Assembly: GCF_054482595.1 (NCBI RefSeq)
Contig: NZ_CM137008.1
DNA: 64,000 nucleotides
Direction: 5' to 3' (one strand)
In this document: piece after piece, positions 41,414 to 42,550 of the stretch
Layout of the letters: every line of letters starts with the position of its first letter
Numbering within the stretch: the stretch's first letter is position 1
Translations under genes and position numbers: made by a program
The notes under the pieces: generated by a model
What the model was told of the DNA's origin: nothing
What the model saw: the letters and a program-made list of their open reading frames with translations, nothing else
Database searches by the model: none

Positions 41414-42550
41414 TTACGAAAGCCCGCTCCCCGCAAGGACTGACGCCAGATAGTTTCTGTCCATGGCTGCTTTTCGCATCTTACGTCTTAACCCTGCCTT
41501 GAATACCTTATCATTCGTCAAAATATTAATAGCAATGTGCCGTATCCCTGAAAATAATTCTGCTGCATTTCCTCTTCTTATTTTGCAGTCGTCTTCATTC
41601 ATTACCACGTCCAGACGCCAGTGCAGCTTATTCTCCACGTGCCAGTGATTTCGGATCGCTGTGGCGAATTTCTCAGCGGTTAAATCAGCAGAACTGATAT
41701 AATATCTGACCGTCATTTCTGGCTCTTTCTTTTGCTCTGCTATTATGGACCGAAAGGAGACTGCCACGCATAATTTCTTCAGCCCTTTCCATTCAAACGT
41801 GAAATCAATAAGTTCATCAGGGACATCGCAAACAATATGAAGACGGATTTCTTCTCTGCCGTGACTCTTTTCACTAATTGCGTAACTGTCATGCTCTGGA
41901 TTATTTAATTCTTTCAGCGGAAATTTTTCCTCAAAGGCTTTATTAAGCCGCCCCTGGTTACCTTTTACCGCGAATAAATAATCACCGCCCTGTTTTTGTA
42001 TCTTCTCTGCGATATCTTTCTGGCAACCCATCGCATCAGTTGTGATAATTTTCCCTTTAATATCCAGCATGTTAAGAAGTTCAGGGATAGCTGTAATCTC
42101 ATTAGATTTCTCATCCGTCTTGATCTGTCCGATGACCAGACTGTGCATTGTTGAGAACGCACTAATGACATGAATCGCTCCCCTGCGGCGACTCTTGTCA
42201 TAAGAATGCCGGAGCGTTTTTCCATCAATTGCAATGACGTCTTTATCATCTGAAGAATGACAATCACGCATCCAGTTAATAAAGCACTCATGAAATTTTG
42301 TAGGGCTGATACAGGATACAACTCTGGCAATGGTATCGTGAACAGGAATACCATTTTCAAAATCACCATATTGCTTCAAAAAATCGAGATGTGTTTCCCC
42401 AAAATCCTCTATATCTTCCCAACCTTCTGCACCCGAAATAACGGCACAAATAGTCAACAGTAGAATATCTGATAATTTATGTTCCACTTTCTAGGCTTGT
42501 CTGTAATCGGGGATAATAGAAATATGTTCCATCAATTTTTTAAGTTCCAT
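41414..42550 (-). mobile_element. H-repeat-associated (ISAs1-family) transposase gene, with N-terminal in-frame amber codon
   Basis: Track ORF 41414..42487 ([43 protein letters not shown]...) is the H-rpt/ISAs1 transposase; upstream in-frame reading gives MELKKLMEHISIIPDYRQA-TAG-K, i.e. the expected Trp codon is TAG at 42491..42493. Confidence 0.8.

What the first reader, a model, noticed from the sequence alone, without database searches (positions are those of the whole stretch)
41414..42550. H-rpt (ISAs1-family) transposase with N-terminal amber codon, in frame with the Rhs core fragment
Upstream of the track ORF start the frame reads MELKKLMEHISIIPDYRQA, then TAG (42491..42493) where H-rpt proteins have Trp, then K-VEHKLSD. 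The gene is therefore either a pseudogene or translated from an internal GTG. Its stop codon (41414..41416) is the only interruption between the H-rpt frame and the downstream Rhs core/CT frame, an unusually tight and co-framed junction. The junction may mark the recombination or insertion point that truncated the rhs gene.
Basis: seen in the sequence. Interest (0 to 1): 0.45.

Follow-up and report, generated by a model that had tools for sequence, protein, structure and literature searches.

The report
Dead insertion sequence in broken rhs gene
This is an ordinary, already-annotated piece of genome decay in E. coli: a 1,291-bp insertion sequence (ISEc1, also called H-rpt) with a premature stop codon in its own transposase gene sits where two thirds of an rhs toxin gene have been deleted.

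Summary
On the minus strand, ATG 42550 opens the ISEc1 (H-rpt) transposase gene. Codon 20 is TAG (42493..42491), where intact E. coli copies have TGG. The gene ends at TAA 41416..41414, in the same frame as the rhs fragment downstream.

The interpretation needs trimming:
- **Element:** a complete 1,291-bp ISEc1 (41404..42694) with CAGGG-type inverted repeats.
- **Tight junction:** the stop codon lies inside the right repeat, 10 bp from the element end, in every copy examined. This is a property of the element.
- **Shared frame:** a one-in-three coincidence.
- **Where Rhs homology starts:** at 41403, not at the stop codon.

Compared with the intact rhs gene at the same yiiX–rpmE locus (strain RM7190), the IS replaces 2,772 bp (nt 383–3154 of 4,185). 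No target-site duplication is present.

The TAG and both junctions occur together in exactly 23 of 5,426 complete E. coli genomes. No genome carries only one of them. RefSeq already annotates the gene as a pseudogene ("internal stop").

A restart at GTG 42487 has no Shine-Dalgarno sequence. Its product would lack Asp15 and Arg17, which are near-invariant and invariant across the ISAs1 family.

The toxin tip (DUF4329) and the immunity-like gene dsORF-f3 remain intact as an orphan module. Interest is low.

The parts
41404..42694 (-). Complete ISEc1 (H-rpt) insertion sequence, 1,291 bp, ISAs1 family
   Evidence: It aligns end to end (positions 1-1291) with the K-12 H-rptB/yhhI element at 97.75% and with the 05-3629 copy at 98.06%. 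It is the only copy in the 64-kb window.
42682..42694 (-). Left terminal inverted repeat (CAGGGAAAGATCA)
   Evidence: My script and inverted-repeat pair I14 (12 nt, 92% complementary, arms 41403-41414 and 42684-42695). The element end is fixed by comparison with the K-12 and 05-3629 copies.
41404..41416 (-). Right terminal inverted repeat (reads TAATCTTGCCCTG on the minus strand). It contains the transposase stop codon TAA.
   Evidence: The same 10-bp distance from stop codon to element end is seen in K-12 (stop 7515, end 7525 in L005) and in 05-3629 (9282, 9292 in L002).
41414..42550 (-). ISEc1 transposase pseudogene (378 codons plus stop, amber at codon 20)
   Evidence: Pfam PF13808 (116 bits) and PF01609 (106.7 bits). 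NCBIfam NF033564 (417.6 bits). PGAP annotates the same coordinates as 'ISAs1-like element ISEc1 family transposase, internal stop' in XH990 and A16.
42491..42493 (-). Amber codon TAG replacing Trp20 (TGG)
   Evidence: A perfect match to the TAG allele is found in 23 of the 4,663 genomes that carry this ISEc1 segment.
42485..42487 (-). Internal GTG (codon 22), the start of the 357-aa ORF in the mechanical ORF list. Probably not a real start.
   Evidence: ORF list. The 25 nt upstream (CCCCGATTACAGACAAGCCTAGAAA) contain no Shine-Dalgarno-like motif.
42557..42592 (-). Likely native transposase expression signals: promoter-like TATACA-17-TATAAT (42592..42564) and Shine-Dalgarno AAGGAG (42562..42557)
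   Evidence: It is the best promoter-like match in the scan (10 of 12), although the total number of matches is no higher than in shuffled sequence. AAGGAG lies 6 nt before ATG 42550. These are consensus matches only.
42695..43076 (-). rhs 5' fragment (nt 1-382; PAAR-like N-terminus and DUF6531)
   Evidence: Pfam DUF6531 at 66.5 bits. NCBIfam RHS_core positions 1-131 of 1261. It is collinear with the intact rhs of RM7190 and with IAI1 up to this point.
40373..41403 (-). rhs 3' fragment: the last ~196 residues of the core, the [10 protein letters not shown] core-end motif, a 147-aa C-terminal toxin tip with DUF4329, and the stop codon
   Evidence: NCBIfam RHS_core positions 1066-1261 and TIGR03696. 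Pfam RHS and DUF4329. Collinear with RM7190 from nt 3155 of its rhs CDS onward.
40048..40371 (-). dsORF-f3, an intact small ORF starting 1 nt after the rhs stop. Presumed cognate immunity gene.
   Evidence: PGAP 'RHS element protein dsORF-f3' (WP_021557388.1), not flagged as a pseudogene. No Pfam or NCBIfam HMM hit. The immunity role is inferred from position only.
39286..39978 (+). Frameshifted IS1 remnant between dsORF-f3 and yiiX. It is ancestral to the locus.
   Evidence: InsA domains PF12759 and PF03811. PGAP 'IS1 family transposase, frameshifted' at the same place in XH990, IAI1, RM7190 and A16.

Best explanation
The region is a decayed Rhs element at the known yiiX–rpmE rhs locus of E. 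coli.

**What it was.** The ancestral state, still present in about 2,170 of 5,426 complete genomes, is rpmE, then a 4.2-kb rhs gene, then dsORF-f3, then an IS1 remnant, then yiiX.

**What happened.** In the lineage of this window, a copy of ISEc1 (H-rpt; ISAs1 family; 1,291 bp) in the same orientation as rhs now stands in place of nt 383–3154 of that gene. It was left there by an IS-associated deletion. This was either recombination between two co-oriented ISEc1 copies that had inserted in the gene, or a deletion starting at one end of a single copy.

**What that destroys.** The Rhs shell and the link between the N-terminal delivery domain and the toxin are lost, so the Rhs protein can no longer be made or delivered.

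**The amber codon.** Separately, a G-to-A transition turned Trp20 (TGG) of the ISEc1 transposase into TAG. Translation from the native ATG (with its AAGGAG Shine-Dalgarno sequence) therefore ends after 19 residues, and the element is immobile. In most genomes that carry it, it is also the only copy of this part of ISEc1.

**What remains.** An orphan module consisting of the 3' end of the core, a DUF4329 toxin tip and the intact dsORF-f3. Its most plausible residual role is immunity against relatives that still have the full gene.

**What is not a mechanism.** The shared reading frame and the 10-bp gap between the transposase stop and the rhs sequence are incidental.

**Shown here:** the anatomy, the deletion end points, the TGG-to-TAG change and the population distribution. 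**Inferred:** the way the deletion arose, loss of transposase function, and the immunity role.
For: **Anatomy**
- IS ends, inverted repeats and length of 1,291 bp.
- Family assignments.
- The window is collinear with intact alleles on both sides of the IS. Window 43600–42694 matches RM7190 6141–7047, and window 41403–38503 matches 9819–12719. The intact RM7190 rhs is 4,185 bp. IAI1 gives the same result.
- NCBIfam RHS_core covers only positions 1–131 and 1066–1261 of 1261.
- The flanks are TTGAGCACCTGTTTC and GCTTCACGCCACTCA, so there is no target-site duplication.

**Amber codon**
- TGG in K-12 yhhI, 05-3629 and WL297; TAG here. Otherwise there is only one amino-acid difference from the intact 05-3629 protein, despite 19 nucleotide differences.
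- PGAP calls it a pseudogene with an internal stop.

**Population**
- A perfect TAG match occurs in 23 genomes.
- The left junction occurs in the same 23, plus one artefactual two-piece join.
- The contiguous right junction occurs in exactly 23.
- The full structure occurs in 23.
- No genome has the same deletion without the IS.
- In 12 of the 23 genomes the TAG copy is the only place that matches this ISEc1 segment.

**Ancestral locus**
- About 2,170 genomes have the rhs 5' end next to rpmE, and 2,164 have the same toxin tip plus dsORF-f3.
- The locus is listed in PMC2935791 (locus 11, between yiiX and priA) and in PMC3032704 (Table 6, b3936–b3937).

**Restart at GTG22 is unlikely to help**
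- No Shine-Dalgarno sequence.
- Asp15 (66 of 68) and Arg17 (68 of 68) lie upstream of it.
Against: - The way the deletion arose is not resolved. No intermediate (IS at only one junction, with a duplication) exists in the 5,426 genomes, so the two-copy and single-copy routes cannot be told apart.
- None of the three ISEc1 copies examined has a target-site duplication. The missing duplication is therefore weaker evidence against a simple insertion than it would be for a typical IS.
- No expression data exist. A low level of termination-reinitiation at GTG 42487, whose first base comes 3 nt after the TAG, cannot be excluded.
- The immunity function of dsORF-f3 is inferred from position and name only. 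It has no HMM hit.
- The 23 genomes fall into at least two backgrounds (flanking 20 kb about 100% versus about 99.2% identical). Whether the allele spread by descent or by recombination is open.
Confidence: 0.88

Rival explanations
1. The transposase gene is still functional. Ribosomes that terminate at TAG re-initiate at GTG 42487 (3 nt downstream), or start there directly. This would give a 357-aa protein that either transposes the element or acts as a truncated inhibitor, in the manner of the Tn5 Inh protein.
For: - The 357-aa ORF is otherwise intact and nearly identical to functional-looking copies: one other amino-acid change versus the 05-3629 protein.
- The GTG lies very close to the stop codon, an arrangement that can allow re-initiation in bacteria (general knowledge, not tested here).
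- The NCBIfam ISAs1 model only begins at residue 29.
Against: - There is no Shine-Dalgarno-like sequence in the 25 nt before the GTG.
- The product would lack Asp15 (66 of 68) and Arg17 (68 of 68). These lie in the Pfam DDE_Tnp_1_assoc domain, which starts at residue 8.
- PGAP calls it a pseudogene.
- The allele has not multiplied. It exists at this one locus only, one TAG copy per genome.
- H-rpt transposition has never been observed (stated in PMC3032704).
Confidence: 0.05
2. The deletion came first and had nothing to do with the IS. ISEc1 later inserted by chance exactly at the existing deletion junction.
For: - Internal rhs deletions without an IS are common. 26 genomes have other short remnants that bring the same two flanks within 275–512 bp. 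WL297 has an IS-free internal deletion at this very locus.
- ISEc1 copies examined here lack target-site duplications in general, so the missing duplication does not exclude a simple insertion.
- With the IS removed, the two fragments would be in frame: 1,413 nt with one terminal stop.
Against: - No genome among 5,426 has this deletion junction without the IS.
- Hitting the exact junction base in a 1.4-kb remnant is unlikely a priori. An IS-associated deletion places the IS at the junction by construction.
- A second ISEc1 inside an rhs core (05-3629, RhsA locus, about 195 genomes by subtraction) also sits at a place where rhs core sequence appears to be missing: the two annotated fragments add up to less than a full-length rhs gene. 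About 200 bp is my estimate from remembered K-12 RhsA sequence. It also lacks a duplication.
Confidence: 0.07
3. The block 'ISEc1 + rhs 3' fragment + toxin tip + dsORF-f3' was imported as a unit from another Rhs element and recombined into the locus. It would then be an H-rpt-linked C-terminal tip, not the result of local decay.
For: - Rhs elements are known to exchange and stack C-terminal tips (PMC2935791).
- H-rpt elements accompany such tips in K-12. In the RhsB locus the order is rhsB, yhhH, yrhC, yhhI.
- Between the two carrier subgroups, the rhs fragments differ more (4 of 382 and 10 of 1,031 nt) than the IS does (2 of 1,291).
Against: - The 3' fragment, toxin tip, dsORF-f3, IS1 remnant and yiiX are collinear, without a break, with the intact allele at this same locus in IAI1 and RM7190 (98.5–98.6% over 2.9–3.4 kb).
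- The same tip plus dsORF-f3 is the native tip of this locus in about 2,164 genomes.
- No other locus in any genome carries either junction.
Confidence: 0.04
4. The TAG is an assembly or sequencing error, and the gene is really intact.
For: Single-base errors do occur in assemblies, and the rest of the ORF is intact.
Against: The identical TAG is present in 23 independent complete assemblies from different laboratories, hosts and countries, always at this locus.
Confidence: 0.005

Closest known systems
ISEc1 / H-rpt (H-repeat) elements of E. coli Rhs elements, e.g. H-rptB (yhhI) and H-rptE (ydcC) of K-12; ISAs1 family
   Same: - Same length (1,291 bp), the same CAGGG-type ends and the same 378-codon ORF ending 10 bp before the element end.
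- 97.75% nucleotide identity to K-12 H-rptB over the whole element.
- Associated with an Rhs element and co-oriented with the rhs gene, as in K-12.
   Different: - Trp20 is replaced by an amber codon.
- The element lies inside the main rhs ORF at a 2.77-kb deletion, not downstream of the toxin tip as H-rptB does in K-12.
Rhs element at the yiiX–rpmE/priA locus (locus 11 of Jackson et al. 2009, PMC2935791; rhsW7 / EcolC_4081 in PMC3032704). Its downstream ORF is named dsORF-f3 by NCBI, which suggests the historical 'RhsF' of the Hill laboratory; that link rests on the name and my memory, not on a test.
   Same: Same chromosomal position, same 5' end, same toxin tip (DUF4329), same dsORF-f3 and same IS1 remnant as the intact alleles in RM7190 and IAI1.
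   Different: - Nucleotides 383–3154 of the rhs gene are replaced by ISEc1. This state is found in only 23 of about 2,170 genomes that have an rhs at this locus.
- It is not the 'RhsF/RhsFI' (ECs0604, S-loop 44) of the EHEC study PMC7618764, which is a different locus that reuses the name.
Orphan rhs toxin/immunity modules (C-terminal tips), as described in Salmonella and EHEC, where internal promoters express the toxin domain and immunity gene independently of the full Rhs protein (PMC7043789, PMC7618764)
   Same: A 3' core fragment plus toxin tip plus an intact downstream small ORF, with no delivery domain attached.
   Different: - Here the orphan arose by destruction of the main gene, not by displacement downstream of an intact gene.
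- Expression was not tested, and no promoter excess was seen.
ISEc1 inside the rhs core at the yibF–yibA (RhsA) locus, e.g. strain 05-3629 and about 195 other genomes
   Same: ISEc1 in the same orientation within an rhs core. It has no target-site duplication, and some core sequence appears to be missing at the insertion point (about 200 bp, my estimate from remembered K-12 RhsA sequence).
   Different: A different locus and different junctions (about 440 bp upstream in core coordinates). The transposase is intact (WP_000420795.1) and is not in frame with the downstream fragment.

Membership tests
ISAs1 family insertion sequence (ISEc1 / H-rpt) | Encodes an ISAs1-type DDE transposase | tested here: met
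   NCBIfam NF033564 at 417.6 bits (cut-off 70). Pfam PF13808 at 116 bits and PF01609 at 106.7 bits, scored on the TAG-to-Trp repaired translation.
ISAs1 family insertion sequence (ISEc1 / H-rpt) | Element of about 1.2–1.5 kb with short terminal inverted repeats beginning CAGGG (family description recalled from ISfinder) | tested here: met
   1,291 bp. The ends are CAGGGAAAGAT and CAGGGCAAGAT (10 of the first 11 positions identical; the pair is also found by the repeat finder as I14). The element aligns end to end with K-12 H-rptB.
ISAs1 family insertion sequence (ISEc1 / H-rpt) | Flanking target-site duplication (8–10 bp, as recalled for the family) | tested here: not met
   The flanks CACCTGTTTC and GCTTCACGCC are unrelated. 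The K-12 yhhI and 05-3629 copies also lack one. This fits a rearranged copy, but the criterion may not hold for ISEc1 at all.
ISAs1 family insertion sequence (ISEc1 / H-rpt) | Uninterrupted transposase ORF (an autonomous element) | tested here: not met
   TAG at codon 20. PGAP notes 'internal stop'. It is therefore a member by descent but a defective copy.
ISAs1 family insertion sequence (ISEc1 / H-rpt) | Demonstrated transposition | not testable with these tools
   PMC3032704 states that transposition of H-rpt has not been observed. The TAG allele is confined to one locus.
Rhs element main gene (RHS element core protein) | Full-length core of about 1,260 model positions (YD-repeat shell) | tested here: not met
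   NF041261 matches only positions 1–131 (278.6 bits) and 1066–1261 (384.6 bits) against a cut-off of 2000. 2,772 bp are missing relative to RM7190.
Rhs element main gene (RHS element core protein) | Core ends in the PxxxxDPxGL motif and is followed by a variable C-terminal toxin tip | tested here: met
   [10 protein letters not shown] is read directly in the translation. TIGR03696 scores 83.5 bits. DUF4329 covers residues 213–333 of the fragment.
Rhs element main gene (RHS element core protein) | Small downstream ORF (cognate immunity) immediately after the toxin tip | tested here: inconclusive
   An intact ORF starts 1 nt after the rhs stop, and NCBI names it 'RHS element protein dsORF-f3'. 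It has no HMM hit, and its immunity activity was not tested.
Orphan rhs toxin/immunity module | 3' core homology plus toxin tip plus immunity gene, detached from the N-terminal delivery region | tested here: met
   The fragment starts at core model position 1066 and is separated from the 5' fragment by the IS.
Orphan rhs toxin/immunity module | Independent expression from an internal promoter (as shown for Salmonella and EHEC modules; PMC7043789, PMC7618764) | not tested
   Only a consensus scan was run. It found 8 promoter-like sites against 7.5 expected, and none stood out upstream of the fragment.

The most novel reading that the evidence does not exclude
The amber-interrupted ISEc1 is not inert. 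Termination at TAG followed by re-initiation at the GTG 3 nt downstream would yield an N-terminally truncated transposase. Such a protein might be retained as a trans-acting inhibitor or DNA-binding protein. Transcription reading out of the IS, or starting inside the rhs fragment, would then keep the DUF4329 toxin tip and dsORF-f3 expressed as a toxin–antitoxin-like pair. If so, the 23-genome allele would be a maintained functional state, not decay.
Probability: 0.04. Interest if true: 0.3.

Novelty: already known. Interest (0 to 1): 0.06.

Why it matters
It matters very little beyond correct annotation.

- **Annotation.** The gene should be labelled a pseudogene of ISEc1. The two rhs pieces should be labelled as fragments of one gene that lost 924 codons. 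RefSeq already does this for identical loci.
- **Strain marker.** The allele (TAG plus both junctions) is a clean, rare marker: 23 of 5,426 complete genomes, including O157:H16 Santai and XH990. It could serve for lineage typing.
- **Toxin-system decay.** It is one more example of how polymorphic-toxin loci decay while keeping the immunity gene. That is expected if immunity stays useful against relatives that still carry the full toxin.

Tried and rejected
1. **Target-site duplication.** I looked for one to separate simple insertion from rearrangement and found none. Two other ISEc1 copies also lack one, so the test has little power.
2. **Intermediates.** Junction-specific probes found the left junction and the right junction only in the 23 carriers. 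The first right-junction probe was confounded because the tool joins separate pieces. I repeated it with a 20+60-nt probe that cannot match in pieces.
3. **The same deletion without the IS.** A synthetic flank-to-flank probe gave only two-piece joins, which are other, unrelated rhs deletions.
4. **Family-wide conservation of Trp20.** It is not conserved. The useful result was that Asp15 and Arg17, upstream of the stop, are conserved.
5. **The name 'RhsF/RhsFI'.** The EHEC paper PMC7618764 concerns ECs0604 in S-loop 44, a different locus, so I did not use it to assign a function to dsORF-f3.
6. **Original H-rpt and RhsF papers.** Literature searches found only secondary mentions. Statements about the 1993 and 1998 Hill-laboratory papers and about ISfinder rest on my memory.
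7. **Long 'fusion' proteins containing ISEc1 sequence.** The database entries P0001–P0005, P0073, P0090 and P0098 look like internal duplications or chimeric gene calls in single assemblies. They give no support for a functional transposase–Rhs fusion.
8. **Promoter and terminator scan.** There was no excess over shuffled sequence, so it supports only the plausible native transposase promoter.
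Full report

Yes. On the minus strand the frame opening at ATG 42550 reads MELKKLMEHISIIPDYRQA, then TAG at 42493..42491, then KVEHKLSD. It continues without interruption to TAA at 41416..41414. The next stop in the same frame is the rhs stop at 40375..40373. The mechanical ORF list starts the 357-aa ORF at GTG 42487, two codons after the TAG.

**2. What the element is.**

With the TAG read as Trp, the protein scores:
- 417.6 bits on NCBIfam NF033564, 'ISAs1 family transposase' (cut-off 70);
- above threshold on Pfam DDE_Tnp_1_assoc and DDE_Tnp_1.

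The DNA from 42694 down to 41404 aligns end to end (1,291 bp) with the K-12 H-rptB/yhhI element at 97.75% and with a copy from strain 05-3629 at 98.06%. The ends are imperfect inverted repeats, CAGGGAAAGAT and CAGGGCAAGAT. The element is therefore a full-length ISEc1 (H-rpt). It is the only copy in the window.

A promoter-like TATACA-17-TATAAT and an AAGGAG Shine-Dalgarno sequence precede ATG 42550. ATG 42550 is therefore the native start.

**3. The amber codon.**

K-12 yhhI, the 05-3629 copy and a WL297 copy all have TGG where the window has TAG.

The rest of the ORF is clean. There are 19 nucleotide differences from the 05-3629 copy but only one further amino-acid change. The lesion therefore looks recent relative to the age of the copy.

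A 61-bp probe centred on the TAG matches perfectly in 23 genomes. In the other genomes listed the best match has one mismatch. In all there are 10,177 places in 4,663 genomes. Twenty-three independent assemblies rule out a sequencing error. RefSeq/PGAP annotates exactly these coordinates as 'ISAs1-like element ISEc1 family transposase, internal stop' in strains XH990 and A16.

**4. Can the internal GTG rescue the gene?**

Probably not.
- The 25 nt before GTG 42487 have no Shine-Dalgarno-like motif.
- I aligned the protein with 67 diverse ISAs1-family representatives (36–54% identity) taken from an exhaustive profile search. Asp15 is present in 66 of 68 sequences and Arg17 in 68 of 68. Both lie upstream of the TAG and the GTG.
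- Position 20 itself is variable: Arg in 33, Gly in 7, Trp in 5. 'Trp' is therefore a feature of ISEc1, not of the whole family.
- A product starting at Val22 would lack the conserved N-terminal motif of the DDE_Tnp_1_assoc domain, which begins at residue 8.
- Low-level termination-reinitiation cannot be excluded by sequence alone.

**5. The rhs context.**

| Piece | Window coordinates | Evidence |
|---|---|---|
| rhs 5' fragment, first 382 nt (DUF6531) | 43076–42695 | NCBIfam RHS_core positions 1–131 |
| rhs 3' fragment, ending [10 protein letters not shown], then a 147-aa tip with DUF4329 | 41403–40373 | RHS_core positions 1066–1261 |
| dsORF-f3, intact | 40371–40048 | PGAP name, not flagged as a pseudogene |
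| IS1 remnant, frameshifted, followed by yiiX | 39286–39978 | InsA domains and PGAP |

On the other side lies rpmE. This is the known rhs locus between yiiX and rpmE/priA (locus 11 in PMC2935791; b3936–b3937 in Table 6 of PMC3032704).

**6. The deletion.**

About 2,170 of 5,426 complete genomes have the rhs 5' end next to rpmE. About 2,164 have the same toxin tip plus dsORF-f3.

In strain RM7190 the gene is intact (4,185 bp). Window 43600–42694 aligns with RM7190 6141–7047, and window 41403–38503 aligns with 9819–12719. IAI1 gives the same break points.

With the IS ends fixed by comparison to other copies, the IS replaces nt 383–3154 of the gene. That is 2,772 bp, or 924 codons. There is a one-base ambiguity at the left junction, because the first C of the IS matches the native sequence.

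The flanks (…CACCTGTTTC and GCTTCACGCC…) are not a duplication. If the IS were removed, the two fragments would be in frame. That is a 1-in-3 coincidence and has no consequence while the IS is present.

**7. 'Tight and co-framed'.**

- The transposase stop lies inside the right inverted repeat. In K-12 yhhI and in the 05-3629 copy it also ends 10 bp before the element end. Any sequence next to the right end of ISEc1 is therefore 10 bp from the stop.
- Rhs homology begins at 41403, immediately after the IS. The codons S-C-P and the first base of G between the stop and the rhs sequence are IS sequence.
- A shared frame has a prior of one third. At the other rhs-internal ISEc1 (05-3629, RhsA locus) the annotated downstream fragment is not in the transposase frame (coordinates).
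- Two stop codons (TAG and TAA) would have to be read through to make a fusion protein.

**8. Distribution and history.**

| Feature | Genomes that carry it |
|---|---|
| Full structure | 23 |
| TAG allele (perfect match) | 23 |
| Left junction | the same 23, plus one artefactual two-piece join |
| Contiguous right junction | 23 |
| Same deletion without the IS | 0 |

No genome has one junction without the other.

In 12 of the 23 carriers the TAG copy is the only place that matches this part of ISEc1. Those genomes have no intact helper copy.

Fourteen carriers are about 100% identical to the window over the adjacent 20 kb (Santai O157:H16, AHM21C2872I, GF66.1, XH990 and others), and a fifteenth, YZMc3-1, is 99.7% identical. 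The remaining carriers are about 99.1–99.3% identical there, no closer than many non-carriers. The allele has either persisted through some divergence or moved by homologous recombination.

Between the two subgroups the IS differs at 2 of 1,291 nt. The rhs fragments differ at 4 of 382 and 10 of 1,031 nt. This would fit gene conversion from paralogous rhs cores, but I did not test that.

**9. Most likely mechanism.**

*Shown:* an ISEc1 stands at a 2.77-kb internal deletion of the locus-11 rhs gene, and its transposase has a nonsense mutation at codon 20.

*Inferred:*
- The deletion was IS-associated. It arose either by recombination between two co-oriented copies within the gene or by a one-ended deletion from a single copy. 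The data cannot separate the two.
- The amber codon is an independent inactivating mutation.
- The locus can no longer produce a deliverable Rhs toxin. It keeps an orphan toxin-tip/dsORF-f3 module, whose likeliest residual value is immunity.

Independent expression of such modules from internal promoters is documented in other systems (PMC7043789, PMC7618764) but was not tested here.

**10. Comparison with what is known, and verdict.**

Everything here belongs to known kinds:
- H-rpt/ISEc1 elements associated with Rhs elements;
- the yiiX–rpmE rhs locus;
- rhs pseudogenes and relics, and orphan tips.

The public annotation already records the pseudogene and both partial rhs genes. The 'RhsF/RhsFI' of PMC7618764 is a different locus (ECs0604) and should not be confused with this one. 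The 'unusual' junction geometry is incidental. Interest is low.

Noticed in passing
window 40415-40777 (-), within the rhs toxin tip 40376-40816: The C-terminal tip carries Pfam DUF4329 (52.8 bits) and contains a DYHTHG motif. This may hint at a metal-dependent hydrolase; that is my reading of the sequence and was not tested. No function is assigned. The same tip is the native tip of this locus in about 2,164 genomes.
   Followed up: partly
L002 (strain 05-3629) 8002-9292, RhsA locus between yibF and yibA: A second, independent ISEc1 lies inside an rhs core, with an intact transposase, in about 195 genomes (by subtraction). It also lacks a target-site duplication. The two annotated rhs fragments add up to less than a full-length gene; about 200 bp missing is my estimate from remembered K-12 RhsA sequence. 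None of the three ISEc1 copies I examined (this one, K-12 yhhI, and the window copy) has a duplication. ISEc1 may not make them, or most extant copies may be rearranged.
   Followed up: partly
L004 (strain WL297) 5585-9033, same yiiX-rpmE locus: This is a different decay state of the same locus. It has an IS-free internal rhs deletion joining the DUF6531 part directly to the DUF4329 tip. Next to yiiX it also has a group II intron maturase fragment and a more divergent ISAs1-family element (95.3% to ISEc1, left end not aligned).
   Followed up: no
E. coli genome hits H281-H295: At least 26 genomes carry other short rhs remnants in which the same 5' and 3' core flanks lie only 275-512 bp apart. 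Large internal deletions of rhs cores therefore recur at several loci.
   Followed up: no
window 40373-41403 and 42695-43076 versus L006 (strain A16): Between the two subgroups of carriers, substitutions cluster in the rhs fragments (14 in 1,413 nt). The IS has 2 in 1,291 nt, and the IS1 remnant and the adjacent part of yiiX have none (39000-40292). This would fit gene conversion of the fragments by paralogous rhs cores elsewhere in the genome.
   Followed up: partly
window 39286-39978 (+): A frameshifted IS1 copy between dsORF-f3 and yiiX is present in carriers and also in IAI1 and RM7190. It is therefore an old, fixed part of this Rhs element and unrelated to the ISEc1 event.
   Followed up: partly
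protein database entries P0007, P0073, P0090, P0098: Single-assembly ORF calls fuse ISEc1 transposase sequence to other proteins: an Rhs N-terminus (P0073), a VgrG N-terminus (P0090) and an InsA/RHS-repeat segment (P0098). In a Shigella sonnei entry (P0007), a frameshift near the 3' end lets the transposase frame read out of the element into a downstream toxin-like tail. These are probably chimeric assemblies or rare rearrangements.
   Followed up: no
literature: PMC7618764 versus NCBI product name 'RHS element protein dsORF-f3': There is a naming collision. 'RhsF/RhsFI' in the 2025 EHEC study is ECs0604 in S-loop 44, not the yiiX-rpmE element whose downstream ORF NCBI calls dsORF-f3. Functional claims about RhsFI (small-RNA binding) must not be transferred to this locus.
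   Followed up: yes
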